Source: Escherichia coli
GTDB lineage: Bacteria; Pseudomonadota; Gammaproteobacteria; Enterobacterales; Enterobacteriaceae
Strand: one strand, 5' to 3'
DNA length: 64,000 bases
Assembly: GCA_025336685.1 (NCBI GenBank)
Contig: GCA_025336685.1_4717.1
The position numbers and the translations under genes were made by a program. This document shows, in pieces, positions 2,146-18,077 of the stretch. The first letter of the stretch is position 1. Every line of letters starts with the position of its first letter. Under the pieces are notes generated by a model that ran no database searches, was not told where the DNA came from, and saw only the letters and a list, made by a program, of their open reading frames with translations.

Positions 2146-4758
2146 TTATACGTCCGGCGTAAAATCAAAAGGAACGTCCGTACGAATGATATCATAACGT
2201 TTTCCTAAGAAATAGAACTCTTCGGGAACCAGACCGGGAATAATGCTATCGCCGATGAACTGTGGGTATGCCCAGATGTACTGAGTGAGTCCTTCGAACA
2301 TATCCAGGTTATTTGCGTGGTTACCCATGATACGTTTCCAGAGTTCGCGTTTATACGGTGTTTTGACATCGAACCCATAAAGCGGTGCGAGGTCTTCGCC
2401 AGGAACAAACCCCAGGTAATAGTGGATCTGACTAACCGGGAACCCAAGCGTATCTCGCGGAATGGTGATCGCTTGCTCGGCCTTGGTGACATGCGTCTCA
2501 ATAATCCAGTCGTAGCACTCCGAATAGAACCGATCGAATTTCTCTGGATTATACCACGCTTTGGGAAGATTCAGTTTCTCCGTGAACGCGTTCGACATGA
2601 TCGTCGGCAAGAACGGAAGAACGCCGGTTTTGATCTGCGTGTATTTCGATTTTACCCGATTGACTAGATTCCAGCAACTGTATCCTAATTGATCGTTGCA
2701 GAACTCAACGTAGAGATCGTAATCCCCACCCGATAATGGATTATTAATATCGCCGATGTCTGCCGCATATTTGTTGGGGTATCGGTTATTGAAAGCCAGT
2801 TTGGTTTGGTAATCGTAAATGCACGGTTTATTGTTCTTCGTGTTAATCCACCACCAGGGTTCACCCACCTGCACACAAATGTCTTGGACATGCGGGTAGA
2901 TGATATCAGCAAACGCGGTTAACACATCCCCTAACCACGCCATCGCGTGTTGGTTGCATGGCGACAACAACCAAGACGGCGGCGTATATCCGGTTGCTGC
3001 TATGTTTCCTTCCCAATCCTGCTGCGCCCACTCGAACGGGCATGCCGTGCTCATCAATTCGTAACTTAAACTGATTGTAACAGAGAAATGGTGTTTTGCA
3101 GCGTATGCGGCGAAAGCTTCATGCCATGCGATACAGGGTGGGTTGAGTACATCTGTGGTGTTCACCAGTAACTTACTCGCACTTGGTGTCCAGACAGTAT
3201 CGTAGAAATGCGACATTCCAACATAGTGCACTAATTCATCTTGATATCCCGCATAAACCAGGTTCTCAAATACGCGTTCCGGCGTGATGTTGTAATGGTC
3301 GTCATAAGCGGTTATCGCACGAAGCTCGTGTGGTGTACATTGGTGACGATTAACCGTCATTTCCTGATACACCCCATCAATAGGAAGAATCTCGAGGGTT
3401 AAACCGAGGTCGATCGGTGTTTCCAGGTAGGTCGTTTCTGTAGCACCTTCCTTATAATGTCGAGAACTCATGCTGAACATCAACGACGTGACCGATTCGA
3501 GTTCGATAGGTTCGTCAGCATAGAACCCCGCCATTGCGTCGTTGAAATCGATCGTTACGATTGCGCTTCTACCATCTTCAGAGACGTCGGTGGCGTATCG
3601 GGTTAATGAGATATACTGACGGCTATCGTCTTTGTGTACGACGGTTAAAACCGGCGGGTTTTCGGTATCCGCAAAGTTACGCTGATCGCCAGTAAACGTG
3701 ATCTTGGCTTTAAAGATCAAACCGAACAACGACGTCATGGGATCATACGCAACACAACCATGATCTAGCGTATCCGTTGTCCGCCATTCTATCCCTACCA
3801 ACCCGTTAGCGGTATGGCATCGCATATACGCATTAAGTGTCATGTCTTCACTGACAACCGCGAAGTTCTCTGTAGATTGACCGTTGATAATCCAATACAT
3901 CGGTTGCCAGAGGTTACGCGTGCCTTTTGCGTAGCGGTAGGTTGGTGCGCCTTTAGGGTTGCCGTTATTGAGATGGAATACAGCCGTACCTTGGTAATGA
4001 TCGTTCGTGTTAATCGGAACACTGTACGCGTCGCCGAGGTCCGTACGTTCGACCTTCGTGACAGTTGCGTTTTCAAACAGCCCACGTAGTGTAGGAAGAC
4101 CAATGTCATCAGGCGCGTTTTCTCGGCGAATCGCGTCCGCGATGCGGTGGGCTAGGGCGGGGTAAATGGTCTCACCCTGCTGTAGGTTTGCAAGACCTAC
4201 AAAGCGATCGGGGTTGATACCAGCAATCAATAACTCGACATCGCCCTTCGTTCTATCGTCATGGAGGTATTTCAGTCCAGTAAGATCAAGATGTTGAATT
4301 AACGACAACAGATTGTACTTACGGTTTTCAACAGTCAGTACAAGATCACCTGCCCAAACCAAACTTCCCTCATCCGCCGTTACTCTAACGGATTGGCGGC
4401 CTGTGGTAGACGTTGTTGTCGTTTTATTTAATTGTCCTTGTAGGAAGTCGGTTGCGAGGTCAAAGGCAACGCCGTAACGGTCAGCGACCGCCTGCATGAT
4501 TTCACGTAACTGGGTATCTTCTTCAATGATGATCTTGACAGGTATTCCCAAGAACGCCTTGGCGAGGTCTCGCTTAACCATCGAGACGAATACGGATTTG
4601 TAATATCGGCCTCCATCTTTCCCTTTAAAAAGAATGGAGGTTGTTTCGGGTGACGATAGAACACGTGCAAATTCAACATCGTCGAAAGTAAGAGAAAGTC
4701 CGTTTTTCTCGTTGGTTAATCTTAGTATTTCATTTTGCGCGGTTTCATGTAACTTCAT
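2146..4758 (-). CDS. tail spike/fibre-like receptor-binding protein (870 aa) with shared N-terminal anchor domain
   Basis: N-terminal ~170 aa (KRDLAKAFLGIPVKI...VWAGDL) paralogous to four other proteins in the window; large distal domain of unknown fold; TGAGG SD. Confidence 0.55.
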   Translation of the reverse strand: MKLHETAQNEILRLTNEKNGLSLTFDDVEFARVLSSPETTSILFKGKDGGRYYKSVFVSMVKRDLAKAFLGIPVKIIIEEDTQLREIMQAVADRYGVAFDLATDFLQGQLNKTTTTSTTGRQSVRVTADEGSLVWAGDLVLTVENRKYNLLSLIQHLDLTGLKYLHDDRTKGDVELLIAGINPDRFVGLANLQQGETIYPALAHRIADAIRRENAPDDIGLPTLRGLFENATVTKVERTDLGDAYSVPINTNDHYQGTAVFHLNNGNPKGAPTYRYAKGTRNLWQPMYWIINGQSTENFAVVSEDMTLNAYMRCHTANGLVGIEWRTTDTLDHGCVAYDPMTSLFGLIFKAKITFTGDQRNFADTENPPVLTVVHKDDSRQYISLTRYATDVSEDGRSAIVTIDFNDAMAGFYADEPIELESVTSLMFSMSSRHYKEGATETTYLETPIDLGLTLEILPIDGVYQEMTVNRHQCTPHELRAITAYDDHYNITPERVFENLVYAGYQDELVHYVGMSHFYDTVWTPSASKLLVNTTDVLNPPCIAWHEAFAAYAAKHHFSVTISLSYELMSTACPFEWAQQDWEGNIAATGYTPPSWLLSPCNQHAMAWLGDVLTAFADIIYPHVQDICVQVGEPWWWINTKNNKPCIYDYQTKLAFNNRYPNKYAADIGDINNPLSGGDYDLYVEFCNDQLGYSCWNLVNRVKSKYTQIKTGVLPFLPTIMSNAFTEKLNLPKAWYNPEKFDRFYSECYDWIIETHVTKAEQAITIPRDTLGFPVSQIHYYLGFVPGEDLAPLYGFDVKTPYKRELWKRIMGNHANNLDMFEGLTQYIWAYPQFIGDSIIPGLVPEEFYFLGKRYDIIRTDVPFDFTPDV

Positions 4759-4780
4759 TGAAAACCTCAGCCCTTTAGAA

Positions 4781-5422
4781 TTAGATGTACTGCTTACCGC
4801 CCACGAAGGAAGTTAGCCAGTTCCCACTGACAAGCTGTGATACCCAGCCAGGCACTGCCCTGCCATTCTGGCTCATGACGTTACCACACCAGCCAGGGAA
4901 TCCGGGACGGATATAATAGAAAGTTAAATTGTAGAGATGGCAATTCCATACCGCAACGTTATGTTTACCAGAAACCGCTTTAAAGACAAACGCAACGGGT
5001 AAAGGCGACGATAACAATTCAGTCACAGGAACGGCTGACCAGTTTGCGTTCGCGTTCCATGGTTGCCAGGTATGGCTACGCGAGTCGCAAAATACGTTAC
5101 CGTTGTTACCGCGCCCACCAGCATGCCACCACAGCGACGGACTCATGTTCTTAAGTGAGGTAAATTGCTGTGGTGGAATATTAGGAATAATAACAGGGTT
5201 GGTACCTTGCCCATGTTTCTTTTCTTTTGCGTTTACATACCCACTTATCGATTCGAGGTATTTGACACCAGGATAATTGTTCTGGACTTGTGTCGCAATA
5301 TCACGGACATCAAACGTCCAGCAGATCATGGTGTTGTAGTAAGCATCGGTGTTGTCGTACCAAGCGTTACCATCTTGTAAACGTGCGCCACTATTCGGTG
5401 TTTTATCTGTGCTTATAGCCAT
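4781..5422 (-). CDS. hypothetical tail-module protein (213 aa) with conserved C-terminal module
   Basis: C-terminal ~45 aa (RPGFPGWxGNVMSQNGRAVPGWVSQLVSGNWLTSFVGGKQY) identical to the next gene; AGGA SD. Confidence 0.5.
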   Translation of the reverse strand: MAISTDKTPNSGARLQDGNAWYDNTDAYYNTMICWTFDVRDIATQVQNNYPGVKYLESISGYVNAKEKKHGQGTNPVIIPNIPPQQFTSLKNMSPSLWWHAGGRGNNGNVFCDSRSHTWQPWNANANWSAVPVTELLSSPLPVAFVFKAVSGKHNVAVWNCHLYNLTFYYIRPGFPGWCGNVMSQNGRAVPGWVSQLVSGNWLTSFVGGKQYI

Positions 5423-5528
5423 GTTATTGTCCTATACTACGATGATTGAGATATCGAATGTCGGACGCTTGGTGCCGTCTGGTAGTACATACAGAAACAC
5501 CCACAGATAAAACAATAACTCCCATCAA

Positions 5529-6194
5529 TTAAATTGATGTTAGATACTGCTTACCTCCGACAAACGATGTCAACCAGTTCCCACTGACGAGCTGTGATAC
5601 CCAGCCAGGCACTGCCCTACCGTTCTGGCTCATCACATTACCCGCCCATCCCGGAAAACCAGGTCGGAAAATATATACTTGAATATGTGTTAAAGCGTTA
5701 TCATTACCTCCACCAACAGCAACATTACGACGTCCGGATGATGGGAAATATTCTTTTAAGAACAGGGGATCGTTTGCCAATAAAGAAGCGGGCCAAGGAT
5801 TAGCGGATGCGTCAACATCGAATTCGGTCCATCGCCATTTGCGTCCGGTATCGAACCAGGTTGACGTACCACCGCCACGCACCGCAAGATTGCGTGCATC
5901 ACGGGCACTGTATATTGATTCGATGTTTCGCCACCCACCTTTTGCGGCGTTTGCCGCATAGCAAATCGCATTACCACCATTCTTCTTTTCGTAAACGGTT
6001 CGTTTGATATGAACACGGTCGATAAACGCTTCACCGTATTTGTTGACGAGTGTTTGCGCGATATCACGAAGATCGTGCATATGAAAGGCGATGTCTTCGT
6101 TGTGGAACCACGTTGTCGGGTTCCAAACGGTGCCGTTTGGTTCGGCACACATCGATCGGATATTGTTGCGTTGATTAATCGCGATAAAGCCCAT
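5529..6194 (-). CDS. hypothetical tail-module protein (about 221 aa), paralog of 4781..5422
   Basis: Same C-terminal module with different N-terminal region; start chosen at internal ATG 6192-6194 with GAGG SD (ORF track extends to 6257 through the terminator). Confidence 0.5.
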   Translation of the reverse strand: MGFIAINQRNNIRSMCAEPNGTVWNPTTWFHNEDIAFHMHDLRDIAQTLVNKYGEAFIDRVHIKRTVYEKKNGGNAICYAANAAKGGWRNIESIYSARDARNLAVRGGGTSTWFDTGRKWRWTEFDVDASANPWPASLLANDPLFLKEYFPSSGRRNVAVGGGNDNALTHIQVYIFRPGFPGWAGNVMSQNGRAVPGWVSQLVSGNWLTSFVGGKQYLTSI

Positions 6195-6246
6195 GGTCCA
6201 CCTCGTTCCTGTTCTCGAAGGAAATTTCATACGATGACGCCATAAC

Positions 6247-6303
6247 AGCTCCCCCATCCTCCCAACCCGTAAGGGAAGGGAGGATGTAAGGGAAGGAGGA
6301 GCT
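6247..6303 (-). terminator. nested GC-rich hairpin terminator
   Basis: Inner stem CATCCTCCC/GGGAGGATG (6255-6263/6278-6286) with loop AACCCGTAAGGGAA, enclosed by AGCTCC/GGAGCT; downstream of the lipoprotein gene. Confidence 0.5.
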
Positions 6304-6309
6304 ATTTAA

Positions 6310-6813: not shown

Positions 6814-6857
6814 CGTCGGATTTCCTTATGTGTTAACGGAAGTGATTTCCATAGTAA

Positions 6858-7273
6858 TTACACAGTTTTAGGAAATTCCGGCCAATCGATATTTGGCGCG
6901 GCGTCGGTATCGATAGCCGTCACCTCGTCAATGTAATCCAAAACAGCATTAAGTTGGGCTGTTTCTTCCGGAGTCAGTTTTCGCCCGGCCCGTAATTTTA
7001 ACTGAATAAGATCAATGGAAGCCAGCGCAGAGTCAATCAGAGATTTTTTCATCTGTTCTGCCTCGGCGACGAGATCTTCGTGTTGCCGCTCGGGTTCCGG
7101 AGGTGCGGTAAACTCACCATTTGAGTATAACCAACCTATTCCAGGCGACACAGCTCCCGTATCGCTAATGCTGACCAACTGTTGATTGTCAGATACATCG
7201 AGCTCTGCTTCGCCATCGTAAACAATCGTGTTTACTACCACCCCATTTTCAATAACAGCGTATGATGTACTCA
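6858..7273 (-). CDS. tail fibre assembly protein (chaperone)
   Basis: Lies immediately after the long fibre gene; start ATG overlaps the fibre stop (ATGTAATGAGT); C-terminal region resembles phage Tfa chaperones. Confidence 0.55.
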
Positions 7274-10200
7274 TTACATAAACTCCTCGATGATGCAAAT
7301 CCCGTCAGCGCCACGCCCGCCACGCATAACGGTTCCAGTGTAACCGTTATCGTAAGCGCCGCCGCCCGAACCTCGTGCGAGGCCGTTTGACCCACCGCCA
7401 ACAGCTGCGCGACCACCGCCACCCCAATATGACGCACCCCCACCACCACATACAGGAAATGCGCCAGCCTGACCGTCATCACCATCACCACCTGAAATGC
7501 GTATATCCCCGGTACTAGGTACACCACCACCCCCACCGCCAGTGTTTGTGACAGTTGTTTTTCCTGCGCCTTGCCCACCGGGAGCAGTCAGCAGGGATGC
7601 AAATTTACTATCCCCGCCCCTGTTTCCAACTGTTGCCCCGGAACCACCAGTGCCACCAGAACCAATTACAACAGAATAACTAGTAGCCGCTACCGTTATA
7701 ACCGAAATTACTGTTGCCCCGGCCCCACCGCCAGCACCAAAAAACGTTTCGCTGTTGGAAAAAGCCTGGCAACCACCACCGCCGCCTCCACCACCGGTTA
7801 ATATTACTCTAATCCGTTTTGTTCCTTGTGTTGGGGTGTACGTCCCTGACGATGTGAAAACACGCATGTTCAGTAAACGTCCGACATATCCACTAGAATC
7901 GGCTAAACCAAGATCTTTAGCTGCTAACGTGATATTAGCTGTGCCATCGAAAGGTTTACCGTTAATCGTGCGTGCCGTCTGCAGCTTCGTGGCCGTTGCT
8001 GCGTTTCCTGACGTATTCTGGTTTCCCGCGGCGTTAACACCTGGTAGATTGATGTTCGCACTACCGTCGAAAGACACCCCACCAATGGTGCGGGCTGTCT
8101 TCAGTTTTGTCGCCGTGGCGGCATTACCGGTCGTGTCTTGGTTACCGGTGGTGTTTACCCCAGGTAGGTTGATATTGGCTGTTCCGTTAAATGAAACACC
8201 ACCAATCGTCCTTGCTGTTTGCAACTTCGTTGCGGATGCCGCATTCCCCGTGGTGTTTTGGTTACCTGTTGCATTCACGCCTGGGATGCTATCCTTAGAT
8301 GTGTAGATCTGTGCCCATTCCGACCAGTTCGAATCGGCCGCATCACGACGTGAACGTAGGTAAGCTGGAGCGTGTGCGCCTGAGGTACCTGACCACCCAA
8401 TGAGGATTTCACCTTCACCGACCGATGAAGCCCCTTTAAGATGAATGATGTTACCATAAGCGGTGGGATATCCGTTATTGTACGCTTCATACATCTGGAT
8501 GCCCGCATTGCTGCCCTGAGCCGTGTTAGCTAAGGCCGTAACACGACCTTTGGAAGCGAGAGCGTTAATACTGAAGCTAATATCCTTAGTACCGTCAAAG
8601 GCGACCCCATTAATCTTCCGTGCTGTTTGGAGTTTCGTAGCAGTAGCCGCATTACCAGAGGTACTCTGATTACCTGCTTTGTTCACGCCCGGTAAATCAA
8701 TGTTGGCTGTTCCATCAAAGGACACACCCCCTATGGTTCTCGCTGTCTGGAGTTTTGTTGCTGAACCAGCGTTTCCAGAAGTGCTTTGATTACCTGCCGC
8801 GTTGACACCCGGTAGGTCAATGCTAGCAGAACCATCAAAAGAAACTCCACCGATCGTGATCGGTGTTTTCAATTTCGTGGCTGTCGCAGCATTACCCGTC
8901 GTATTCTGATTGCCAGCAGCATTAACACCAGGTAATGCGATATCGGTCGTACCATCGAACGCAACACCACCGACTTTACGGGCGGTCTGTAGCTTGGTCG
9001 CTGTAGCCGCGTTGCCGCTGGTATTTTGCGTGCCTGCTTTATTTACGCCAGGCAAATCAATGTTCGCAGTACCATCAAAAGAAACACCCCCGATGGTTCT
9101 CGCGGTCTCAAGTTTGGTTGCGCTTCCTGCGTTTCCGCTGGTGCTTTGATTTCCCGCTGCATCAACACCTGGTAGATTGATGCTGGCCGAACCATCGAAA
9201 CTCACACCACCGATAGTAACAGCGGTTTTCAACTTCGTCGCCGTTGCTGCGTTACCGGTTGTATTTTGATTGCCTGTCGCATTAACGCCCGGTAATGCAA
9301 TATCCGCTGTTCCGTCAAAGGCAACGCCACCGATTCTACGTGCAGTTTGTAGCTTGGTTGCACTAGCAGCGTTACCGCTGGTATTCTGGGTGCCAGCTTT
9401 GTTAACACCGGGGAGATCGATATTAGCAGAACCATCGAAGCTGACGCCACCTATCGTTCTTGCAGTATCGAGTTTAGCTGCTGTGGCTGCATTATTACCC
9501 ACTTTCAGCCAATCATCCCATGGACCATCCTGGCCGTTCCATGATGCCGTTAAACTACGTACGTAAATATTGCCGGTACGTACAGTGTAACGTTGCGTTC
9601 CACCGAATTGTCCGGCAGGGAGCACTTCAAGGTAACCTGCAGCATTTGCTTCAGGGAAATTGTGGGCGACGTCCGCGTTCGTTGATACTGGTTTAGACCA
9701 AATACCCACAGACACTTCAACCGGACCGTAAGTATTCAGATTTGCGTCGGTGGGGAGCTGTCCTCGAAAACGTTGGAATTGTGTCGCCGATAACCCCAAC
9801 GTTGTTTGCATGCTTTCAATGCTGGATTGCTGAAGTAACGTCCGTGCTGTCGATGTAATCACGGTAAGCGCAACTTTATTAACACCGGTGAAATACGGGA
9901 GTTTGTCTGCTGATGTCGCTAAACCTGAAAAGGCGGTCAGTAATGCGTTAAGGGGCTGCTTCCCAGCTAACGCATTTGTTACCGTCGTTGCGAAATTAGG
10001 ATCGCTTCCTATAGCTCGAGCCAGCTTATTAAGCGTATTTAGCGTCGCTGGTGACGAGTCGATCAGCGCCGTGATCGCACGCATCACAAATTCCGTGTTG
10101 GCTATCTGTCGACTGCTATTGTTAACTGCTGCGGTGGGCGCTGCTGGCGTACCAGTGAATACAGGGCTATTAAGATCCGCCTTGAGGGCGATGAGACGTT

Positions 10201-11149
10201 TAAGCGCTTCAACATCGACTTTCAGGTTTTCCCATCCGATGAGAGAACCACCACTGTTGGCATGGTAACGGTTGTACCAGAAGTCACCGTTAACGCCTAA
10301 AAAGAATATTCCCTTCTCTTCGTTTTGTGGGCCGGAACTATTTCGTGATGCGCTGATATATTTGATTTTAATAATACCGTTAAACACCACTCCTGGGATT
10401 ATTTCGCTGCTTCCAGCTAACTGTGATACTTGGTAAATCCCCGGGGTCGCAGCTTTAACCCATGTTAAGAATTCTGTTACTCCGGCGTTACCACTGAAAT
10501 TCTTAACGTCGGTAAGTATCGCACCATAACCGAACATACCGGGCAGAGCAACTCGTCCGTTGGTACGGTCACGAATATTTGATGCGATTACAGGTAGCTG
10601 TTTACGAACATTATTAACCGCCTTAGGTGTGGCCGATTTTGTCTCATCGTCGCTATCGATGGCGTTGCTCAGGATGGTCAGCCCTCGCTTAGCAGTAGTT
10701 GCATCAGGAAGAAATGCGTTATCCAACACCTTAAGCTGTATTGCACTCGTATTACTAACAACGACATGCATCTGACAGTTAAGAACGCTGGTTGCGCCTT
10801 CGGTAGGCATAGGCTTATATCTTTCTGGTGCACTGCAGACGGCAATCAGAACACCCTTGTCGTCGTACAGACCGATCTCACGTACCCAGAACCCACCTTG
10901 ACTGGCAGGAATAATACCCTCAACGACAATCCTGGTTGTACTATCGCCATCCGCATGGATATTAGAAACTTCCCCACGATAAACTTCGTGAACAAGCGCT
11001 GTTTGGCTGGCGGTCGGGGTTGGTGTCGAGCCGTTACCATCACCAACGGCAAAGTGTGTGATTTTTAGTTTCTCACCGTCGGGAAGTAACGCAGCGGTGA
11101 TACGTTCTGCTCCTTTATCGGTAACTACCGTTTTATATGCTGTACTCAT
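7274..11149 (-). CDS. long tail fibre protein (about 1291 aa from internal Met; ORF track 1318 aa)
   Basis: About 12 degenerate ~34-aa repeats (TARTIGGVSFDGTANIDLPGVNxAGNQNTSGNAATATKLQ) typical of phage fibres; Gly-rich C-terminal domain; likely start MSTAYKTVV at 11147-11149. Confidence 0.8.
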   Translation of the reverse strand: MSTAYKTVVTDKGAERITAALLPDGEKLKITHFAVGDGNGSTPTPTASQTALVHEVYRGEVSNIHADGDSTTRIVVEGIIPASQGGFWVREIGLYDDKGVLIAVCSAPERYKPMPTEGATSVLNCQMHVVVSNTSAIQLKVLDNAFLPDATTAKRGLTILSNAIDSDDETKSATPKAVNNVRKQLPVIASNIRDRTNGRVALPGMFGYGAILTDVKNFSGNAGVTEFLTWVKAATPGIYQVSQLAGSSEIIPGVVFNGIIKIKYISASRNSSGPQNEEKGIFFLGVNGDFWYNRYHANSGGSLIGWENLKVDVEALKRLIALKADLNSPVFTGTPAAPTAAVNNSSRQIANTEFVMRAITALIDSSPATLNTLNKLARAIGSDPNFATTVTNALAGKQPLNALLTAFSGLATSADKLPYFTGVNKVALTVITSTARTLLQQSSIESMQTTLGLSATQFQRFRGQLPTDANLNTYGPVEVSVGIWSKPVSTNADVAHNFPEANAAGYLEVLPAGQFGGTQRYTVRTGNIYVRSLTASWNGQDGPWDDWLKVGNNAATAAKLDTARTIGGVSFDGSANIDLPGVNKAGTQNTSGNAASATKLQTARRIGGVAFDGTADIALPGVNATGNQNTTGNAATATKLKTAVTIGGVSFDGSASINLPGVDAAGNQSTSGNAGSATKLETARTIGGVSFDGTANIDLPGVNKAGTQNTSGNAATATKLQTARKVGGVAFDGTTDIALPGVNAAGNQNTTGNAATATKLKTPITIGGVSFDGSASIDLPGVNAAGNQSTSGNAGSATKLQTARTIGGVSFDGTANIDLPGVNKAGNQSTSGNAATATKLQTARKINGVAFDGTKDISFSINALASKGRVTALANTAQGSNAGIQMYEAYNNGYPTAYGNIIHLKGASSVGEGEILIGWSGTSGAHAPAYLRSRRDAADSNWSEWAQIYTSKDSIPGVNATGNQNTTGNAASATKLQTARTIGGVSFNGTANINLPGVNTTGNQDTTGNAATATKLKTARTIGGVSFDGSANINLPGVNAAGNQNTSGNAATATKLQTARTINGKPFDGTANITLAAKDLGLADSSGYVGRLLNMRVFTSSGTYTPTQGTKRIRVILTGGGGGGGGCQAFSNSETFFGAGGGAGATVISVITVAATSYSVVIGSGGTGGSGATVGNRGGDSKFASLLTAPGGQGAGKTTVTNTGGGGGGVPSTGDIRISGGDGDDGQAGAFPVCGGGGASYWGGGGRAAVGGGSNGLARGSGGGAYDNGYTGTVMRGGRGADGICIIEEFM
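7905..8285 (-). repeat. coding tandem repeats, block B (about 3 units) inside the long fibre gene
   Basis: Same ~34-aa unit after a ~100-aa non-repeat spacer. Confidence 0.55.
8575..9485 (-). repeat. coding tandem repeats, block A (about 9 units of ~102 bp) inside the long fibre gene
   Basis: Repeated GGVSFDG...LPGVN...TGNAATATKL units read from the translation; DNA copies are diverged. Confidence 0.6.
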
Positions 11150-11156: not shown

Positions 11157-11684
11157 TTATCCTGGATAAATAGTGATGATATCACCAATGACCGTTGTGG
11201 CACCGGCGTAAAGATGAGCCGGAGATACATCGTGTTGGTTTGTCACGGTAAGATCCAATCGACCACGCCAAACCATGGAGGTATTCGCGATGGGGATAGA
11301 AATCTTTTTGGATATATCGTCACGAAAATCAATAACAGTGGCAAGGGTAACTGTATCAAAGTCAACGTCGGGGTCAAAGACGAACCCGTATTGATCTGAA
11401 ATCGCCCGAATAATCGCGTGTATAGTTGTTGTCTTAACAGACTCTAAAACGATTTTTATTGGTATTCCTAGAAATGCCTTCGCAATATCGCGTCGAGCGT
11501 AAACGATAAAACTTTCACCGTTCCACCTTGTTCCTTCATTTGCTGTGACGATCACTTTTGCCCTGTTAGCACCAGAACTTCCATCCAAGACTAATGTAAG
11601 ATCGGAGCTGTTGAATACGCTACTGTTACGTCTGTTTATCAACGACGTCAGTTCGTCTTTCCATGGCGGGTAAAGTGAACACAT
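11157..11684 (-). CDS. free-standing anchor-domain protein (about 175 aa) upstream of the long fibre
   Basis: Paralog of the N-terminal domain of the 870/590/503-aa proteins (YARRDIAKAFLGIPIKI); start MCSLYPPWKDEL with GGAGGAGGG SD. Confidence 0.5.
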   Translation of the reverse strand: MCSLYPPWKDELTSLINRRNSSVFNSSDLTLVLDGSSGANRAKVIVTANEGTRWNGESFIVYARRDIAKAFLGIPIKIVLESVKTTTIHAIIRAISDQYGFVFDPDVDFDTVTLATVIDFRDDISKKISIPIANTSMVWRGRLDLTVTNQHDVSPAHLYAGATTVIGDIITIYPG

Positions 11685-11829: not shown

Positions 11830-11841
11830 AGGATAATACGA

Positions 11842-13596
11842 TTATGCTGCTACATATCCAGGCCAACGTTCTCTTGGCCAGTTTGTTGCGCCCTGTCCAA
11901 CGTTGTCCTTACCAGAAATTACGTTACTTACATCCCATCCACTCAGATCCTGATTGAACGCGGTGTTTTCGCGCATCATGAGATCGATCTTACGTAGTGA
12001 ACGGGTATTCCAGCCGGAAATGTCTTGGTTGAATGCTGTATTGTAGGCAAACATGTTAGACACGCTTTGTAACTTCGATGTGTTCCAACCACTGATGTCG
12101 CTATTGAACGACATGCTCGAGAACATGCTGCTCGCATCAACAAGGCTGTCGGTTTTCCAATTAACCAGTTTATCACCATCAAGCGCAGCGCTGCTGCTGA
12201 ACATAAAACTCATGTCGTTAACTTTGGACACATCCCATTTATCCAACCCGTTACCCACGAACGCGGGACAGGACGAGAACATATAACTCATATTAGTAAC
12301 CCGACTCACATTCCATTTACTGAAGTCGAGGTTAAGTTTCTGACACCCTAAGAAGGTTTTAGACATGTTGGTGATACGACTAACATCCCACTCTTGGATG
12401 TTGGGGTCGTTAAGTGTCGTTAAATAGTTGAACAATGTCGCTAACGACGTCCATTTCTGTGGAATCTGGTTTGGTACCGTACGAAGCGATGCGAGGTTGT
12501 TGGTTGACGGAGAGCAGAACATGCCGTTATCCCAATTTACGATCTCCGTAATTTTGGACCCTTTGATCGTCTGAGTGACGTTACCATCTTTCACCATACC
12601 TGTAGCGACGATGGTATATTCACCGGTGTCCGCATAATCGTGGGAGTAGGAGTTGTTGCTTGAGGTCTCCGTTACTTTATTCCCATCACCCCAATCGATA
12701 TTGACCTTATCCCATCCACCTAGATAGAACTGTACTTTGCCTCCGGTGGCTTTTAGGATGTATTTACCCCCATTGTCTGTATAATAACAGACGACCATCG
12801 AACCGTACAGATTACCTATCTGCCAATCATCCTTTTGCGTTATTGCGATTTGCGCCGCACCACGCTGTACGAAGAGTACCGTACGATTCTCGGCAGTCTG
12901 TAATGTGGTTATTGCCTGAGCCTTATCGTCCTCGCTAATTTCGCCAGACGCCACCAAAGCGCTTAACATCCTTTCGAAGTATTCGATCGGTAACTCGGTT
13001 CCAACAGACTTATCAACAGACGATACGGCAAGATCACCCAATGCTGCGGTGGTAGCCAACGCCAATGAACCCTTGGTCATATCTGTTTCTTGGATGTAAT
13101 GCAGTCCTGTAAGCTGGTACGCTTGAATAATAGTAATCAGGTTCAGCGTATCGTTAACGACCTGTACCTGTAAATTCCCGGACCATACATAACTGCTTTC
13201 AGCAATCGGTAGTTCGACCGACTGAATACCCGATGTTTCAAAGGTGATCTTCTTATTAAGATCGGTTTCCAGGAAATCAACCGCGAGGTCGAAATTCATG
13301 CCGTACTTTTCAGCGATGGAATCTACGATATTCTTGAAAGCAACATCGGTGCTTACGATAAAACGTAACGGAATTCCTGTAAACGCTTTAGCGATATCTC
13401 GACGAACATACGTAAGCGATTGTTCGAAGAAATAGGGACTGTTATCTCCAGGCTTGATGGTTACCTGACACGCTTCAGGATATTCAGCTGGGATGAACGA
13501 TTCGAATTTAACATCGGATTCCTTCAACGAAAGCTTGTTATTTCGGTTCACTAACGCCAGAAGATCGGCTTTCCATCCGGGGTAAACTGTAGACAT
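11842..13596 (-). CDS. receptor-binding protein: anchor domain fused to DUF285/BspA-like repeat domain
   Basis: N-terminal anchor paralog; C-terminal repeats WNVSRVTNMSYMFSSC / WDVSKVNDMSFMFSS / WNTSKLQSVSNMF match the DUF285 repeat signature; start MSTVYPGW with GGAG SD. Confidence 0.6.
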   Translation of the reverse strand: MSTVYPGWKADLLALVNRNNKLSLKESDVKFESFIPAEYPEACQVTIKPGDNSPYFFEQSLTYVRRDIAKAFTGIPLRFIVSTDVAFKNIVDSIAEKYGMNFDLAVDFLETDLNKKITFETSGIQSVELPIAESSYVWSGNLQVQVVNDTLNLITIIQAYQLTGLHYIQETDMTKGSLALATTAALGDLAVSSVDKSVGTELPIEYFERMLSALVASGEISEDDKAQAITTLQTAENRTVLFVQRGAAQIAITQKDDWQIGNLYGSMVVCYYTDNGGKYILKATGGKVQFYLGGWDKVNIDWGDGNKVTETSSNNSYSHDYADTGEYTIVATGMVKDGNVTQTIKGSKITEIVNWDNGMFCSPSTNNLASLRTVPNQIPQKWTSLATLFNYLTTLNDPNIQEWDVSRITNMSKTFLGCQKLNLDFSKWNVSRVTNMSYMFSSCPAFVGNGLDKWDVSKVNDMSFMFSSSAALDGDKLVNWKTDSLVDASSMFSSMSFNSDISGWNTSKLQSVSNMFAYNTAFNQDISGWNTRSLRKIDLMMRENTAFNQDLSGWDVSNVISGKDNVGQGATNWPRERWPGYVAA

Positions 13597-13614
13597 AAGC
13601 ACTCCAAAGTTCAT

Positions 13615-13631
13615 GGGGCGGTAACCGCCCC
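13615..13631 (-). other. short GC hairpin in the 22-nt spacer between two tail genes
   Basis: GGGGCGG-TAA-CCGCCCC perfect 7-bp stem; no U-tract follows, so attenuator or RNA-processing element rather than a clean terminator. Confidence 0.4.
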
Positions 13632-13636
13632 GTTGG

Positions 13637-16600
13637 TTAAATTGTTGGTTTAATATCGCGTAATAGGGCGATATAATAGCCTAATCCTCGGAGGATCTCC
13701 CCGCTCCAGAAACCAAAATACATTCCGTCTCTGCCGAGATTAGCACTATCTGGTGCAGGACTCCACCCACCATTCATTGCGTCATCAACGGTGTAACGGT
13801 TTATGTAGTTCTCAACGATCTCGTTATAAACATTAACAGCAACAGAATAGCCTTTATCGTTGGGATGTTCGTACAACATCGCTAACGACGCTCCGGCTAA
13901 CCATAATCCCGCCATATGACCAGTAAAGTCGTTCGGGATAAAGGTAGGGGGTTTATCCATCGGAAAATCCGTAGGAGACCGATAGGCGTTTTCCTGCTGA
14001 TACGTAAACAAGAAATCGATCCAATGACTGATGTAAGTGGATAACTTCTCAGGGACAGCCAAACCACGATCAAGCAGTCCTGCATAAAGCCTCACCGCTG
14101 AAAAGAAAGCCCTCGGCTGATAACCAGACCATGCTGTCTGATCGCCGAAGTGGTACATCGTAAAATCATTAACTTTTGATCCGCTTGGCGCATCCCAACG
14201 ATCCCACACGTACGCACTCGCACCCGGCCCTAAAACCCCGAATTTCTGATAATACCACTGTTGTGAGTCATACCAGAAATTCACAACATTCTGGATCATA
14301 AGGTCACGTCGTTCAGCCGGTACGTCCATATCCAGGAAGACCCATGGATGTTGGTAGCCGGGATAAGGCTGCCCACGCCAACTGTCGAACGTCGGTGCGT
14401 TAGGGATATAGTTGTTCGAGAACGGAATAATACCCGGAGTATAAGGCAACGGATCGAGACGCTGGTTGACAATCGTGCAATCACCAACCCGTAATGTTCC
14501 CTCCGCCTCAAAGGTTGCTTTTAACGTAAACAGCATGGTATATCCGTCATCCGTGGTGTAAGTTGACGGCGGATTGTTGATGGCGTAAAGCTTAAATACC
14601 CCTTCAGCGATATCGCTGTCATCGGGCAAGAACAAAATTTCAGTTGAGCCATCACCCCACACAGGTGCAGAAGGTTTAGGGTCAGTATCCGTGTGGTTCG
14701 GTTGATACCCCGAGAGCGTCCATCCGGTAGCCGAAAGCGTCAACGTATTTCTTGATGTGGTGGTCGGTAGCATCTGCCACCATCGCCAACCATTCGCATC
14801 TTCTACACGAACGTTGAAGTCAATCGACGCGAAATAACTGACCTGTCTTACGATCTGTTTTGCTGTTGGATTGAATTCAAATTGTCCGCCTGCCGCAGTA
14901 AGCTGCGCTTTTAAGAACAACCCATCCCAGGAATCTTCCGCCGCTTCGCTGAATTCTGTTGTGATTGCGACATCGTCTTTCCAGCCGACTTTATCGGCCG
15001 ATATCAGCACAGAACCCGTAACAGCATCACCGGTTGGTGTTGAAGCTTCATCAACCGCATCAGCAGGAATCAACGAGCCTATTTTGAAATCCCATCCTTT
15101 CGGTTCAACGCTGGAAGGTAATACCAGCTTATACGTTTTGGCTTTCGCTTCGGTTTTGTCCAAAGAAAGCGATAACGAGATCTCAACCGGAATTGCAAGG
15201 CCTGTCGTATCTTTACCTCCGCAGGTTACACGAAGAATCGATTCGCGATTTACGCGGAACGGAATGGCCTGCTGTTCGAGGTAAATTTGTGCTGAAGATG
15301 CTTGAATCACGATCCAGCCATCGGTATCACGCGTGATTGTGAACGGCGCTTTCGATGGGTATGTATACGTGTAAGCGATACCGTCGGTATCGTAACGATT
15401 GGTTCCTTTTACCTGACGGAAGAACTTATCGTTGGCGTCGATACGGGTATATTCTTCAATTGTAAACAAAGATGCCTTGTACGCTTTCTGATAGCGCTCC
15501 TGCTGCGTTAAACGGTATAAGGTGTAGGCTGATTCACAAAACCACTGTTCGGCGTCTGATGCGTTTCCCATGTAGTCTCTGGTGACTGGCACCTGGATCG
15601 GTCGGTTATGCTGACATTCATTCGTTTTAATAAGGTATCCGCCATATTCAACAGGAACACGGGGTGCCCATGCAACCAAGTAAGAACCGTTGACGGATTT
15701 ATCTTTGAGTACGATGGTGCCCACCTCATCGTCGGTACACGCTGCAAGATCGTCCCCGTCAGCACTTACGTAACGTTTTGTGCGTAACGCAACTTTCTCG
15801 ATAGGAAACACCGTACCCTTTGTATTCCAGTCAATTGTCCCATCATCATTGGTTTTGAACACGTCCGCGTTCAAATTCTGCCAGCCGAGTTTACCCTCAT
15901 AGACCTTAACAACAAGATCCGCGTATTCCCCGAACGTTGGTGCACCATGTGCTATTTTTCCAATACCGTTGGTGAATGTAACCACTGTGTCATGGAAACC
16001 ACCATGTGTTGGGTAATCGTCTTTTGCAAGAGGATAATGGGCCAACACAGGCTGTTTACCATTAACAATCCAGTTAGCGATCCAGCGTGCCGGTGTATCC
16101 GGTGGTTCAAGGCCTGCATAGAACGCTTTTATATACGCATCGAACGATGATTCTGCTAATGTAAGATAGTGCGCTTTAAGTTTGGTATCATCCGTTGTAT
16201 GACTGAATATACCAGCACCCAGAATTAACAACGACTGTCCTTCTGTTGTCGCGTCACCGTCTGGTTGTGCTTCTTGTCGTGTTGCTGCGATGAAATGGCG
16301 ATTGTTTACCATTACCCCGCTTTCATTTAACACGTAATGATCGGTTTCTGGGTTGGTAAACGTTCCTGTATTTCGGGTTAAGAAGCTTGCATGGCCATAA
16401 CCAACGAAATTAACCGGCGACGCTGTAATCATCCATTTACCGATAAGTTGGGCGACGTCGTTATAACGCTCCGATGCGGTGATTTGTTTCACGTACCAAT
16501 CTTTACGGTTGAATGTCCAAAGCAGGAAGTAATACGTGGCATTGATTTCCATTACCGGAAACGTCGGTGTTAACGGCTCCAGCGTTAAGTAGTTGCTCCA

Positions 16601-17233
16601 ATCAATCTGCCCACCAACAACCGATGGGGTAATCTCTAATAACTGACACCATTCATAACGGTCCGACACACTACTGGACGTTGCTGGTAAAGGTAACTTG
16701 TATACGCCAGTACGATTCAGATTGAATGCTTTCCTAGCTGATCCTAAATCAACATAAATACCGGATGATGCGTTTGCACTAGATGTCTCCAAAGCACCTA
16801 GCGTTGACCGATACATTGAGATGAACAGCGTATCTTTCCAGTAAGGGTTATCCTTGGTTGGTTCTAGTGCGATTTGTGCAAAGATGCTGTTCTGTGTCCC
16901 TAACTGGTATGTTGCACTTAAAGATTCTTCTGTGAAGTAACTTTCTGCAATCGCCAGATGGAACTGCTCGTTCAATAACGCGAGTGCCGCTCGACCAGAA
17001 ACCGCTTCATTACCGGTTTCTTTTTTCATGATTGCGCCGAACGGAAACAGTGTCGCGAATGACCGTTTTGGTTTATTAACCGTAACCGTCCCCGTGTAAT
17101 TTCCAACACCATCAAGTTTTTGACTATCGCCGACAGCAGTGACTGTGACGCCATCAACTGGGATATCTGTTTTGTTTAGTGCGTTGAGTTGGTCGACCAG
17201 ATCCTGTTTATCATCAGGTAAGAATGTCGTCAT
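13637..17233 (-). CDS. large tail-associated protein (1198 aa), putative tail spike
   Basis: Giant ORF immediately downstream of a free-standing anchor-domain gene (13-nt gap, GGAG SD); no motif confidently recognised. Confidence 0.5.
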   Translation of the reverse strand: MTTFLPDDKQDLVDQLNALNKTDIPVDGVTVTAVGDSQKLDGVGNYTGTVTVNKPKRSFATLFPFGAIMKKETGNEAVSGRAALALLNEQFHLAIAESYFTEESLSATYQLGTQNSIFAQIALEPTKDNPYWKDTLFISMYRSTLGALETSSANASSGIYVDLGSARKAFNLNRTGVYKLPLPATSSSVSDRYEWCQLLEITPSVVGGQIDWSNYLTLEPLTPTFPVMEINATYYFLLWTFNRKDWYVKQITASERYNDVAQLIGKWMITASPVNFVGYGHASFLTRNTGTFTNPETDHYVLNESGVMVNNRHFIAATRQEAQPDGDATTEGQSLLILGAGIFSHTTDDTKLKAHYLTLAESSFDAYIKAFYAGLEPPDTPARWIANWIVNGKQPVLAHYPLAKDDYPTHGGFHDTVVTFTNGIGKIAHGAPTFGEYADLVVKVYEGKLGWQNLNADVFKTNDDGTIDWNTKGTVFPIEKVALRTKRYVSADGDDLAACTDDEVGTIVLKDKSVNGSYLVAWAPRVPVEYGGYLIKTNECQHNRPIQVPVTRDYMGNASDAEQWFCESAYTLYRLTQQERYQKAYKASLFTIEEYTRIDANDKFFRQVKGTNRYDTDGIAYTYTYPSKAPFTITRDTDGWIVIQASSAQIYLEQQAIPFRVNRESILRVTCGGKDTTGLAIPVEISLSLSLDKTEAKAKTYKLVLPSSVEPKGWDFKIGSLIPADAVDEASTPTGDAVTGSVLISADKVGWKDDVAITTEFSEAAEDSWDGLFLKAQLTAAGGQFEFNPTAKQIVRQVSYFASIDFNVRVEDANGWRWWQMLPTTTSRNTLTLSATGWTLSGYQPNHTDTDPKPSAPVWGDGSTEILFLPDDSDIAEGVFKLYAINNPPSTYTTDDGYTMLFTLKATFEAEGTLRVGDCTIVNQRLDPLPYTPGIIPFSNNYIPNAPTFDSWRGQPYPGYQHPWVFLDMDVPAERRDLMIQNVVNFWYDSQQWYYQKFGVLGPGASAYVWDRWDAPSGSKVNDFTMYHFGDQTAWSGYQPRAFFSAVRLYAGLLDRGLAVPEKLSTYISHWIDFLFTYQQENAYRSPTDFPMDKPPTFIPNDFTGHMAGLWLAGASLAMLYEHPNDKGYSVAVNVYNEIVENYINRYTVDDAMNGGWSPAPDSANLGRDGMYFGFWSGEILRGLGYYIALLRDIKPTI

Positions 17234-17246
17234 TATTTACTCCGCC

Positions 17247-18077
17247 TTAATCGTAACTGAAATAAAGTTTGCTGCTGACGCCGCTATCGGAATGAGGTTT
17301 TAATACCAGAACAGAGCTTCCGAACGACGGAAGTATCGGAACATTTAAATCGTTTGCGTCGGCAACTTTTCCGTTATAAACGACACTGGCTGTTGTGATA
17401 AGTTCCCAAGCTAAGGCATAACTCATTGAAATCAGTGAAGAGGCTAAACGGAATGCGTTGTATCCTTCAGGAGAATCTCCAACCGACAATGAACGTATCG
17501 CATCTTGCGGTGGTAAATTTAGCTTGATGCCGTAGGTGCTAAACGTGTGGAAATCCCCTTGTTTACTATCTTCTGGATAGTAAGAGGTTAGCGGTTCTCG
17601 CACCGTAATCAGTTCGCTAATATCGGTATTTACCGCTTTTCGTGCGAGGAATTGAAACGTACCGTACCACGATGCTGATGCATCAGAACGAATAGGAACA
17701 GTTATGGTTTTCTCGCCGCTTTCAAATTCAATCTGTGTCGCTAACGTTGAAGAATCAAAGATCGTTAAATCGATCTTCAACCCATACTTCTTAAACAGCT
17801 GCGTTAAGCAGTCTGCTATAGTCGTCATATCAGCAACGACAATAAAAGGTTGGTGTTTGATAAAGAGCTTATTAATGTCTCGACGTTGAAGATAAACCTG
17901 CACGGGGTCTTCGATATAGTAAGTCGATTGTGATGTGGGGACTATAGAAAGGCGTAACCGACCTGATGCACCATACCAGGCTGGCGTTAGCGTAATGTCT
18001 GACGGGGATAATGGGTGCTGGAGGTCGGTGTTTATTTTAGATAACACTTCCTCTTGCCATGATGCTTCAGGATACAT
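17247..18077 (-). CDS. free-standing anchor-domain protein (276 aa)
   Basis: Diverged paralog of the anchor domain (YLQRRDINKLF...); TGAGG SD; first gene after the 18163-18190 terminator. Confidence 0.45.
   Translation of the reverse strand: MYPEASWQEEVLSKINTDLQHPLSPSDITLTPAWYGASGRLRLSIVPTSQSTYYIEDPVQVYLQRRDINKLFIKHQPFIVVADMTTIADCLTQLFKKYGLKIDLTIFDSSTLATQIEFESGEKTITVPIRSDASASWYGTFQFLARKAVNTDISELITVREPLTSYYPEDSKQGDFHTFSTYGIKLNLPPQDAIRSLSVGDSPEGYNAFRLASSLISMSYALAWELITTASVVYNGKVADANDLNVPILPSFGSSVLVLKPHSDSGVSSKLYFSYD

What the first reader, a model, noticed from the sequence alone, without database searches (positions are those of the whole stretch)
2146..18077. Modular receptor-binding system: five paralogous anchor domains, three fused and two free-standing
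A ~170-aa N-terminal domain (consensus around Y(I/V)RRDIAKAF(T/L)GIP(L/I)...VW(A/S)GNL) recurs in five genes. In 2146..4758, 11842..13596 and 55486..56937 it is fused to unrelated distal domains; in 11157..11684 and 17247..18077 it is a separate small protein immediately upstream of a giant fibre or spike gene (7274..11149, 13637..17233). This looks like one virion attachment site family serving several different receptor-binding modules, with both fused and split architectures in the same genome, implying a branched multi-specificity adsorption apparatus.
Basis: partly seen in the sequence, partly recalled or inferred. Interest (0 to 1): 0.7.

Follow-up and report, generated by a model that had tools for sequence, protein, structure and literature searches.

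The report
Shared DUF7941 docking domain, Goslar-like phage

Summary
Five ORFs share a ~150-aa N-terminal domain, and all five score above threshold for Pfam PF25613 (DUF7941).

The window is about 93% identical to the chimallivirus Goslar. A = gp86, B = gp91, giant = gp92, D = gp93 and E = gp161. C has no Goslar counterpart.

A 2026 bioRxiv preprint on Goslar describes this family. [quoted passage not shown]

My own tests agree with it:
- The AlphaFold model of D shows the same three-part layout.
- Its only significant PDB fold match is PhiKZ gp127 in the baseplate (9xqd).
- 13 of 150 family representatives carry 2-3 tandem copies of the N-terminal domain.

The shared module does carry adhesin-like domains. 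However, four proteins are fused and two are free, C and E share their distal domains, and nothing supports B as an adaptor for the tail fibre.

What is new here is modest: gene C (lost by a clean deletion in Goslar), the tandem arrays, and fast joint divergence of D and the giant's N-terminal domain.

The parts
17247..18077 (-). D: complete free-standing DUF7941 protein (276 aa), orthologue of Goslar gp93. It has an N-terminal domain (aa 1 to ~150), a disordered linker (~155-182) and a C-terminal domain (183-276).
   Evidence: Pfam PF25613, E = 5.5e-10. AF2 model pLDDT 82.9, with the linker below 50. Foldseek match to PhiKZ gp127 (9xqd_0), E = 6e-7. 91% identical to Goslar gp93.
13637..17233 (-). 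Giant 1198-aa tail protein, orthologue of Goslar gp92. It has a divergent DUF7941 N-terminal domain followed by a large distal part (PHROG 2871, annotated as tail protein).
   Evidence: PHROG 2871, E = 6e-295. No Pfam or PDB sequence hit. 95% identical to gp92.
16805..17221 (-). Sixth, divergent DUF7941 N-terminal domain (aa 5-143 of the giant protein).
   Evidence: Family HMM, E = 1.9e-7. hhalign probability 97.1%, E = 7e-11. The preprint also lists gp92 as a DUF7941 protein.
11842..13596 (-). C: DUF7941 N-terminal domain plus linker motif, a weak PKD-like stretch, and DUF285/BspA leucine-rich repeats (584 aa). It is a paralogue of E and is absent from Goslar.
   Evidence: Pfam. 48% identical to E. 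Its best match in the phage collection is Goslar gp161 at 47%. A clean indel covers window 11855-13599. The gene sits at the same position in Salmonella-assembly contig L002. Its 90% cluster has 142 members.
11157..11684 (-). B: DUF7941 N-terminal domain plus a ~25-aa tail (175 aa), orthologue of Goslar gp91. It has the same architecture as the abundant Goslar filament protein gp23.
   Evidence: Pfam PF25613, E = 3.7e-15, covering model positions 7-154 only. 92% identical to gp91.
7274..11149 (-). P1 gpS/P2 gpH-type tail fibre (1291 aa), orthologue of Goslar gp90. It has no DUF7941 domain.
   Evidence: PF12571, PF03406 and Gly_rich_2 hits. No hit with the DUF7941 profiles. The C-terminal tip diverges from relatives, at 21-54% identity.
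6858..7274 (-). Tail fibre assembly chaperone (Caudo_TAP), orthologue of Goslar gp89.
   Evidence: PF02413, E = 9e-21. Goslar annotation.
2146..4758 (-). A: full DUF7941 (aa 2-277), then an N4 gp65-like N domain (284-450), then a TIM barrel related to N4 gp64/gp65 (476-837). Orthologue of Goslar gp86.
   Evidence: Pfam PF25613, PF23844 and PF23845. PDB 9lc0_M (N4 Gp64), E = 1.9e-29, and 9lc0_I (N4 sheath gp65), E = 4e-7. 97% identical to gp86.
55486..56937 (+). E: DUF7941 N-terminal domain plus linker and DUF285/BspA leucine-rich repeats (483 aa), orthologue of Goslar gp161. It lies about 37 kb from the main cluster, on the opposite strand.
   Evidence: Pfam. 93.7% nucleotide identity to the Goslar gp161 region. 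Estimated at about 111 copies per Goslar virion.

Best explanation
The window comes from a Goslar-like nucleus-forming jumbo phage (Chimalliviridae). [quoted passage not shown]

Proposed mechanism:
- The N-terminal domain is a docking socket. The segment that follows it is a conserved '(D/N)L..(I/L)I....L.GL.Y' motif inside a disordered linker, followed in the complete members by a C-terminal domain. [quoted passage not shown]
- Chains are seeded at the six spoke tips of the peripheral baseplate, where PhiKZ gp127 sits at the end of the gp139 band.
- Short members (the B/gp23 type and the D/gp22 type) build or extend chains. Fused members (A, C, E, giant) use the same N-terminal domain to load glycan-binding, hydrolase or leucine-rich-repeat domains onto those chains.
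- The result is a flexible, multi-specificity adsorption apparatus that is separate from the P1-type tail fibre.

For the pair D and giant, I infer a dedicated D-to-giant heterodimer analogous to PhiKZ gp127-gp126.

Shown here: homology of all six copies, the three-part domain layout of D, the fold match to a baseplate-resident protein, and the range of architectures across the family.
Taken from the literature: gp22 filaments, AlphaFold 3 head-to-tail models, and virion mass spectrometry.
Inferred: the order of proteins in the chains, the D-giant pairing, and the role in host recognition.
For: Family membership and context:
- All five reader-listed proteins pass Pfam PF25613. The sixth copy, in the giant, is found by profile search and hhalign at 97% probability.
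- The window is about 93% identical in nucleotides to Goslar, with one-to-one gene correspondence.
- The preprint 10.64898/2026.04.21.720040 lists gp22, 23, 31, 33, 34, 86, 91, 92, 93 and 161 as DUF7941 proteins. It reports AlphaFold 3 head-to-tail oligomers, negative-stain filaments of gp22, and a fit of PhiKZ gp126-gp127 into baseplate density.

Structure:
- The family profile hits PDB chain 9xqd 'PHIKZ127' at E = 1.8e-14.
[quoted passage not shown] - In PhiKZ the gp139 band 'terminates at gp127', with one copy per star lobe.

Family-wide census (242 clusters at E <= 1e-3):
- The N-terminal domain starts within the first 25 residues in 147 of 150 representatives.
- Lengths fall into three classes: 46 with the N-terminal domain only, 28 complete, and 66 fused.
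- Fused partners include BspA leucine-rich repeats, a beta-propeller, a T-even Gp38 adhesin and an N4 sheath TIM barrel.
- 13 of 150 representatives carry 2-3 tandem N-terminal domains at a period of about 170-180 aa. These look like covalent versions of the proposed chain.

D-giant pairing:
- Goslar gp92 and gp93 have equal mass-spectrometry estimates, about 4.9 and 4.8 copies per virion.
- The D-giant adjacency is conserved in four genomes.
- D (57-69% identity) and the giant's N-terminal domain (73-76%) diverge together, while the rest of the giant stays at 94-97%.
Against: - No DUF7941 density was resolved in the Goslar baseplate map. The 'fibre cloud' is described by its own authors as speculative.
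- The virion preparation used for mass spectrometry also contained non-structural proteins such as chimallin at an estimated 100+ copies. Detection of gp86, gp92 and gp93 at about 5 copies and gp91 at about 1 copy is therefore weak proof of incorporation.
- I could not run a multimer prediction, so no docking between any pair of window proteins was tested here.
- The deposited gp127 model in 9xqd is itself an AlphaFold model docked at about 4.4 A, and the TM-score to it is only 0.51.
- The joint divergence of D and the giant's N-terminal domain could simply reflect one recombination block, or generally fast evolution of DUF7941 domains. B is also only 63% identical to its L002 orthologue.
- No receptor or host-range data exist for any of these proteins.
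Confidence: 0.72

Rival explanations
1. Each DUF7941 N-terminal domain plugs directly into its own site, or a paralogous site, on the baseplate. The two free proteins (B and D) are detachable adaptors that hold the downstream fibre and giant protein, so the system is a split version of the fused architecture.
For: - The PhiKZ gp127 N-terminal domain does contact the baseplate directly, at the tip of the gp139 band.
- B sits directly upstream of the fibre gene and D directly upstream of the giant gene, and this order is conserved in Goslar and in contig L002.
- Estimates of about 5 copies per virion for gp86, gp92 and gp93 would fit six sites.
Against: - The giant has its own N-terminal domain, so D is not its missing anchor.
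- gp161 (about 111 copies), gp33 (about 112), gp22 (about 580) and gp23 (about 2140) far exceed six sites.
- The fibre has a PF12571 N-terminus. gp91 is estimated at about 1.2 copies against about 43 for gp90.
- No fusion of DUF7941 with PF12571 occurs among the 66 long representatives.
- A protein with only the N-terminal domain in another chimallivirus is not next to a fibre gene.
Confidence: 0.15
2. The DUF7941 proteins are mainly structural or decorative baseplate and filament components, or co-purifying aggregates. They would have no direct receptor-binding role, and host recognition would rest on the P1-type fibre and other tail proteins.
For: - The distal part of the giant is 94-97% conserved among Goslar-like phages found in E. 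coli and Salmonella assemblies. That is unlike a fast-evolving receptor-binding tip.
- The variable element is instead the tip of the fibre, at 21-54% identity.
- gp22 self-assembles into filaments in vitro, so it could co-sediment with virions.
- Contaminating non-structural proteins are present in the virion mass-spectrometry data.
Against: - The fused partners are typical adhesin or depolymerase modules: BspA leucine-rich repeats, a Gp38 adhesin, and an N4 gp64/gp65 TIM barrel.
- C shows the classic receptor-binding-protein pattern, with a conserved N-terminal domain (88%) and more variable distal parts (55-76%).
- gp127 is seen in the PhiKZ virion structure.
Confidence: 0.13

Closest known systems
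Goslar DUF7941 proteins gp22/23/31/33/34/86/91/92/93/161 (bioRxiv 10.64898/2026.04.21.720040)
   Same: Five of the six window proteins are direct orthologues at 91-97% amino-acid identity for the four compared (A = gp86, B = gp91, giant = gp92, D = gp93) and 93.7% nucleotide identity for E = gp161. They have the same domain layouts and the same gene order.
   Different: The window phage also carries C, a 584-aa paralogue of gp161 that Goslar lacks because of a clean 1745-bp indel. The window does not cover the region of the abundant chain-building genes gp22/23/31/33/34.
[quoted passage not shown]
   Same: The N-terminal domain is homologous (profile E = 1.8e-14; Foldseek E = 6e-7) and the overall length is similar (290 aa against 276 aa for D). 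gp127 lies at the outer end of the gp139 spoke. Its linker and C-terminal domain are proposed to hold the product of the adjacent gene, gp126.
   Different: Sequence identity is only about 21%. The preprint names only three PhiKZ members (gp126, gp127 and gp143); I did not examine their domain architectures. PhiKZ's fibres use a different family of paralogous N-termini (gp131-135).
Branched multi-tailspike systems with shared N-terminal adaptor modules (CBA120 TSP1-4, G7C gp63.1/gp66, RaK2). This comparison rests on general knowledge and was not tested here.
   Same: The logic is the same: conserved N-terminal docking modules let several different receptor-binding or depolymerase domains sit on one virion.
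   Different: There is no sequence or fold relationship; the only significant PDB fold hit was 9xqd. Those systems form defined branched complexes with fixed stoichiometry. They are not open-ended head-to-tail chains with hundreds to thousands of subunits.
Phage N4 non-contractile sheath gp64/gp65 (PDB 9lc0, 9yf4; PMC13434306)
   Same: The distal half of A is homologous to N4 gp64 (E = 1.9e-29) and to a domain of the receptor-binding protein gp65. It matches Pfam NCTSP_N and TIM-barrel_NCTSP.
   Different: In N4 these proteins form a six-fold sheath around a podovirus tail. Here the modules are fused behind a DUF7941 domain in a myovirus, so only the domain is shared, not the assembly.

Membership tests
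DUF7941 (Pfam PF25613) chimallivirus filament/baseplate proteins | Sequence match to the PF25613 model above the gathering score (27 bits) | tested here: met
   A 142.7 bits, E 85.7, C 83.1, B 56.6 and D 39.6. The giant fails Pfam even at E <= 10. It does match a 163-sequence family profile (E = 1.9e-7) and hhalign (97.1% probability).
DUF7941 (Pfam PF25613) chimallivirus filament/baseplate proteins | Globular N-terminal domain, then a disordered linker, then a globular C-terminal domain in complete members | tested here: met
   In the AF2 model of D, residues 1-150 have pLDDT about 90, residues 160-181 are below 50, and residues 183-276 are about 85. A matches the full 276-position model. B covers positions 7-154 only, like gp23.
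DUF7941 (Pfam PF25613) chimallivirus filament/baseplate proteins | Fold equivalence with the PhiKZ gp127 N-terminal domain seen in the peripheral baseplate | tested here: met
   Foldseek against 9xqd_0 gives E = 6e-7, probability 1.00 and TMt 0.51, and it is the only hit at E <= 1e-3. The sequence profile gives E = 1.8e-14.
DUF7941 (Pfam PF25613) chimallivirus filament/baseplate proteins | Encoded by a chimallivirus (phiKZ-like nucleus-forming jumbo phage), usually as several paralogues per genome | tested here: met
   The window is about 93% identical to Goslar and holds six paralogues. All named BFVD fold matches are phiKZ-like jumbo phages.
DUF7941 (Pfam PF25613) chimallivirus filament/baseplate proteins | [quoted passage not shown] | not testable with these tools
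   No multimer prediction was available. Indirect support: 13 of 150 representatives have 2-3 tandem N-terminal domains at a period of about 175 aa. In the literature there are AlphaFold 3 models and gp22 filaments.
DUF7941 (Pfam PF25613) chimallivirus filament/baseplate proteins | Presence in purified virions | not tested
   Known only for the Goslar orthologues, by mass spectrometry: gp161 about 111 copies, gp92 about 4.9, gp93 about 4.8, gp86 about 4.5, and gp91 about 1.2 from 2 peptides. C has no orthologue in that data set.
P2 gpH / P1 gpS-type tail fibre (for 7274-11149) | N-terminal PF12571 domain, fibre repeats, and a downstream Caudo_TAP chaperone | tested here: met
   PF12571 E = 8.6e-43, PF03406, Gly_rich_2. 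PF02413 chaperone at 6858-7274.
N4 non-contractile sheath proteins gp64/gp65 (for the distal half of A) | NCTSP_N and TIM-barrel_NCTSP domains | tested here: met
   PF23844 at 42 bits and PF23845 at 286 bits. PDB 9lc0_M at E = 1.9e-29. This is domain homology only. Formation of a sheath around a tail was not tested and is not expected.
BspA-type leucine-rich-repeat surface proteins (for the distal parts of C and E) | DUF285 (PF03382) repeats | tested here: met
   C at 156.8 bits with 2 stretches, E at 78.4 bits. [quoted passage not shown]

The most novel reading that the evidence does not exclude
The DUF7941 paralogues would follow a pairing code rather than forming a random 'cloud', with adjacent genes encoding dedicated chain partners. 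D would be the specific baseplate-proximal adaptor for the giant gp92-like protein, as gp127 is for gp126 in PhiKZ, and the two interfaces would co-evolve quickly. B, which has only the N-terminal domain plus a short tail and sits where P2 gpI, Mu gp48 or P1 R sit upstream of their fibre genes, would graft a horizontally acquired P1-type fibre onto the chimallivirus DUF7941 network. Presence or absence of C would then tune host range among Goslar-like phages.
Probability: 0.2. Interest if true: 0.55.

Novelty: new member of a known kind. Interest (0 to 1): 0.3.

Why it matters
How jumbo nucleus-forming phages find their hosts is still largely unknown. The peripheral baseplate of both Goslar and PhiKZ is mostly unmodelled.

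This window shows that a Goslar-like phage packs most of its candidate host-recognition genes into one minus-strand cluster: D, giant, C, B, fibre, chaperone, three small genes, then A. Nearly all the non-fibre candidates carry the same DUF7941 docking domain.

The increments beyond the preprint give concrete handles for testing the filament model and for engineering host range by swapping distal domains behind a constant N-terminal domain. They are:
- a natural presence/absence polymorphism of one adhesin (C);
- tandem covalent arrays of the N-terminal domain in relatives;
- the joint divergence and equal stoichiometry of D and the giant.

The central idea itself is already in the literature.

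Tried and rejected
- A single-sequence AF2 prediction of the giant's first 300 residues failed (pLDDT 32), so no fold evidence came from it. The word-indexed homologue search found only two fragmentary homologues of that region. The sixth copy therefore rests on profile and hhalign evidence.
- Pfam at E <= 10 does not detect DUF7941 in the giant.
- phmmer of D, the giant and C against PDB sequences found nothing. Only the family profile reached PhiKZ gp127.
- tblastn of B against the phage collection finds only Goslar. Conservation of the B-fibre adjacency could therefore not be surveyed in distant chimalliviruses. One protein with only the N-terminal domain in another chimallivirus (P0055) is not next to a fibre gene, and another (P0033) lay on a 913-bp contig.
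- I considered whether the 'split' genes could be frameshift artefacts of fused genes and rejected it. B and D are separate genes with the same lengths in Goslar and nearly the same in the more distant L002 and L004 contigs. D and the giant are also in different reading frames, separated by 13 nt.
- I considered whether C was a recent insertion and rejected it. Goslar retains the ribosome-binding site and the last 13 nt of the C ORF, including the stop codon. C sits at the same position in a relative whose D is only 61% identical.

Full report
**1. The observation**

- A, 2146-4758 (minus strand)
- B, 11157-11684 (minus strand)
- C, 11842-13596 (minus strand)
- D, 17247-18077 (minus strand)
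- E, 55486-56937 (plus strand)

Their first ~150 residues are clearly homologous. Pairwise blastp gives E-values from 1e-10 to 1e-36 for nine of ten pairs; A versus D is weak at 0.08. Independently of any alignment I built, all five score above the Pfam gathering threshold for PF25613 (DUF7941), with 39.6 to 142.7 bits.

**2. Corrections to the anatomy**

An HMM built from the five copies alone finds nothing else in the six-frame translation of the window. I then searched 1.84 billion representative proteins with the five-copy profile, which gave 242 clusters at E <= 1e-3. Rebuilding the profile from 163 family members detects a sixth copy. It lies at residues 8-141 of the 1198-aa 'giant' protein at 13637-17233, with E = 1.9e-7. 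A profile-profile comparison used five orthologues of that N-terminus against the family alignment. It gave 97.1% probability, E = 7e-11, over 135 aligned columns.

The tally is four fused (A, C, E, giant) and two free (B, D).

- C and E are 48% identical over 445 aa, and both end in DUF285/BspA leucine-rich repeats, so their distal domains are not unrelated.
- D and A match the whole 276-position DUF7941 model, not just the first 150 positions. B covers positions 7-154 only.
- The tail fibre (7274-11149) starts with the P2/P1-type PF12571 domain and has no DUF7941 domain.

**3. What the genome is**

The region is about 93% identical in nucleotides to Escherichia phage vB_EcoM_Goslar, a chimallivirus. 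By position and identity:

| Window protein | Goslar orthologue |
|---|---|
| A | gp86 |
| fibre | gp90 |
| B | gp91 |
| giant | gp92 |
| D | gp93 |
| E | gp161 |

The exact C and D proteins are in NCBI as MCT7382180.1 and MCT7382182.1. They lie on a 240,999-bp contig of an E. coli assembly, that is, a whole phage genome inside a bacterial assembly.

**4. What is already known**

[quoted passage not shown] It defines exactly this family. Its main points are:
- The DUF7941 proteins are gp22, 23, 31, 33, 34, 86, 91, 92, 93 and 161.
- Each has a globular N-terminal domain, a disordered linker and, in the complete members, a C-terminal domain.
- AlphaFold 3 predicts head-to-tail oligomers in which one protomer's linker and C-terminal domain dock on the next protomer's N-terminal domain.
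- Purified gp22 forms filaments in negative stain.
- The authors propose a 'DUF7941 fibre cloud' anchored at the peripheral baseplate, decorated with carbohydrate-binding, hydrolase and leucine-rich-repeat domains. They call the model speculative.

The PhiKZ atlas paper (PMC13250141) places one gp127 per star lobe at the outer end of the gp139 band.

Table S4 of the preprint gives copy estimates per Goslar virion:

| Protein | Copies per virion |
|---|---|
| gp161 | about 111 |
| gp90 fibre | about 43 |
| gp92 | about 4.9 |
| gp93 | about 4.8 |
| gp86 | about 4.5 |
| gp91 | about 1.2 (2 peptides) |

The same preparation also contained chimallin and PhuZ. Low copy numbers are therefore weak evidence of incorporation.

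**5. Independent tests done here**

- The family profile hits PDB chain 9xqd 'PHIKZ127' at E = 1.8e-14.
- I made an AF2 model of D from a 38-sequence alignment (pLDDT 82.9). It shows an N-terminal domain (residues 1-150, pLDDT about 90), a disordered stretch (160-181, pLDDT below 50) and a C-terminal domain (183-276).
- In the viral structure library there are 70 matches at E <= 1e-3. All the named ones are from phiKZ-like jumbo phages.
- My N-terminal-domain profile recognises Goslar gp22, 23, 31, 33 and 34. The gp31, gp33 and gp34 genes flank the spoke gene gp32.

**6. Family-wide architecture**

Among the 150 best representatives, the N-terminal domain begins within the first 25 residues in 147. 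Lengths fall into three classes: 46 of 140-200 aa (N-terminal domain only), 28 of 260-320 aa (complete), and 66 of at least 320 aa (fused).

The 66 long members are fused to the following, while most distal parts have no Pfam match:
- BspA/DUF285 repeats (12, plus one LRR_5)
- a beta-propeller (2)
- a T-even Gp38 adhesin (1)
- the N4 sheath TIM barrel (1)
- a spiralin-like domain (1)

Thirteen representatives carry two or three complete N-terminal domains in tandem, with a period of about 170-180 aa. That is one N-terminal domain plus a linker-length spacer. The preprint does not mention such arrays. They look like covalent versions of the proposed head-to-tail chain and are the best new support I can add for that model.

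A conserved motif, '(D/N)L..(I/L)I....L.GL.Y', directly follows the N-terminal domain in gp22, gp31, gp33, gp34, A, C and E, and more weakly in D. This is read from the sequences. Its role as the 'plug' is my inference.

**7. The distal modules**

- A: residues 482-789 are homologous to phage N4 Gp64 (E = 1.9e-29) and to a domain of the N4 receptor-binding sheath protein gp65 (PMC13434306).
- C and E: BspA-type leucine-rich repeats.
- Giant: PHROG 2871 'tail protein', with no Pfam or PDB sequence match.

**8. Gene C**

Relative to Goslar, the window has a clean 1745-bp extra segment at 11855-13599 that holds C. Goslar keeps the ribosome-binding site upstream and the last 13 nt of the ORF, including the stop codon. 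The junction has a 2-nt microhomology.

A more distant relative in a Salmonella assembly (its D is 61% identical) has a 584-aa DUF7941+DUF285 gene at the same position, in the order D, giant, C, B, fibre. The 90%-identity cluster of C has 142 members from E. coli, Salmonella and Shigella assemblies, with contigs up to about 241 kb. Loss in the Goslar isolate is therefore the most economical reading. The closest match to C in the phage collection is Goslar gp161, at only 47%.

**9. D and the giant; B and the fibre**

*D and the giant.* Across four Goslar-like genomes, D is 57-69% identical and the giant's N-terminal domain is 73-76% identical. The rest of the giant stays at 94-97%. Three observations fit a dedicated pair in which D's linker and C-terminal domain hold the giant's N-terminal domain:
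- this joint divergence;
- the conserved adjacency;
- the equal mass-spectrometry estimates for gp92 and gp93.

This would mirror PhiKZ gp127-gp126. It remains an inference, because a single recombination block or generally fast evolution of DUF7941 domains would give the same pattern.

*B and the fibre.* The only support is adjacency. The copy numbers are discordant (about 1.2 against about 43). No fusion of DUF7941 with PF12571 was seen. A protein with only the N-terminal domain in another chimallivirus is not next to a fibre gene.

**10. Verdict**

The interpretation, a shared virion-docking module serving several receptor-binding modules, is right in spirit. It is wrong in three details: the count, the 'unrelated' distal domains, and the split-anchor idea. 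The likely mechanism is chaining rather than one site per fibre.

The family and model were published as a preprint in April 2026 for a phage 93% identical to this one. This is therefore a new member of a known kind with modest increments, and I give it a low-to-moderate interest score.

Noticed in passing
window 4781-5422 (-) and 5529-6257 (-): These two ORFs (213 and 242 aa) lie between A and the lipoprotein-like gene. They are paralogues (39% identity, E = 6e-35) with a nearly identical C-terminal ~45 aa (RPGFPGW.GNVMSQNGRAVPGWVSQLVSGNWLTSFVGGKQY) and divergent N-terminal parts. The 242-aa copy is absent from Goslar. Neither has a Pfam or PHROG match. This is a second small family with a constant end and a variable body inside the host-recognition cluster.
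   Followed up: partly
window 6310-6813 (-): The orthologue of Goslar gp88 begins with a lipoprotein-type signal peptide (MKKLCAIILGMLMVLSLGGC). It sits directly downstream of the tail-fibre chaperone. It matches only PHROG 9559, of unknown function. It could be a superinfection-exclusion or receptor-masking lipoprotein, as in T5 Llp; that comparison is from memory and was not tested.
   Followed up: no
window 13600-13636: A G+C-rich hairpin (GGGGCGGTTACCGCCCC on the minus strand) lies directly after the giant gene's stop codon, just before the ribosome-binding site of C. It has no obvious T-run. It is conserved in Goslar even though C is missing there.
   Followed up: no
whole window; contigs: Near-complete Goslar-like genomes (contigs of about 236-241 kb) turn up in many E. 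coli, Salmonella and Shigella isolate assemblies. The exact proteins of this window are on a 240,999-bp contig of an E. coli assembly, which suggests carrier-state or contaminating jumbo phage in sequenced isolates.
   Followed up: no
window 7274-11149 (-): The tail fibre is internally repetitive, with many blastn self-like matches at 65-82% identity. It differs from Goslar gp90 in length (1291 against 1324 aa). Its last ~250 aa are only 21-54% identical to the fibre of the Salmonella-assembly relative, which is typical exchange of a host-range tip.
   Followed up: partly
P0072 (1045 aa) and P0096 (1537 aa): Besides clean tandem arrays of the N-terminal domain, some family members carry 4-6 partial copies of its first ~60-90 residues spread along a long protein. 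This sub-domain repeat architecture remains unexplained.
   Followed up: no
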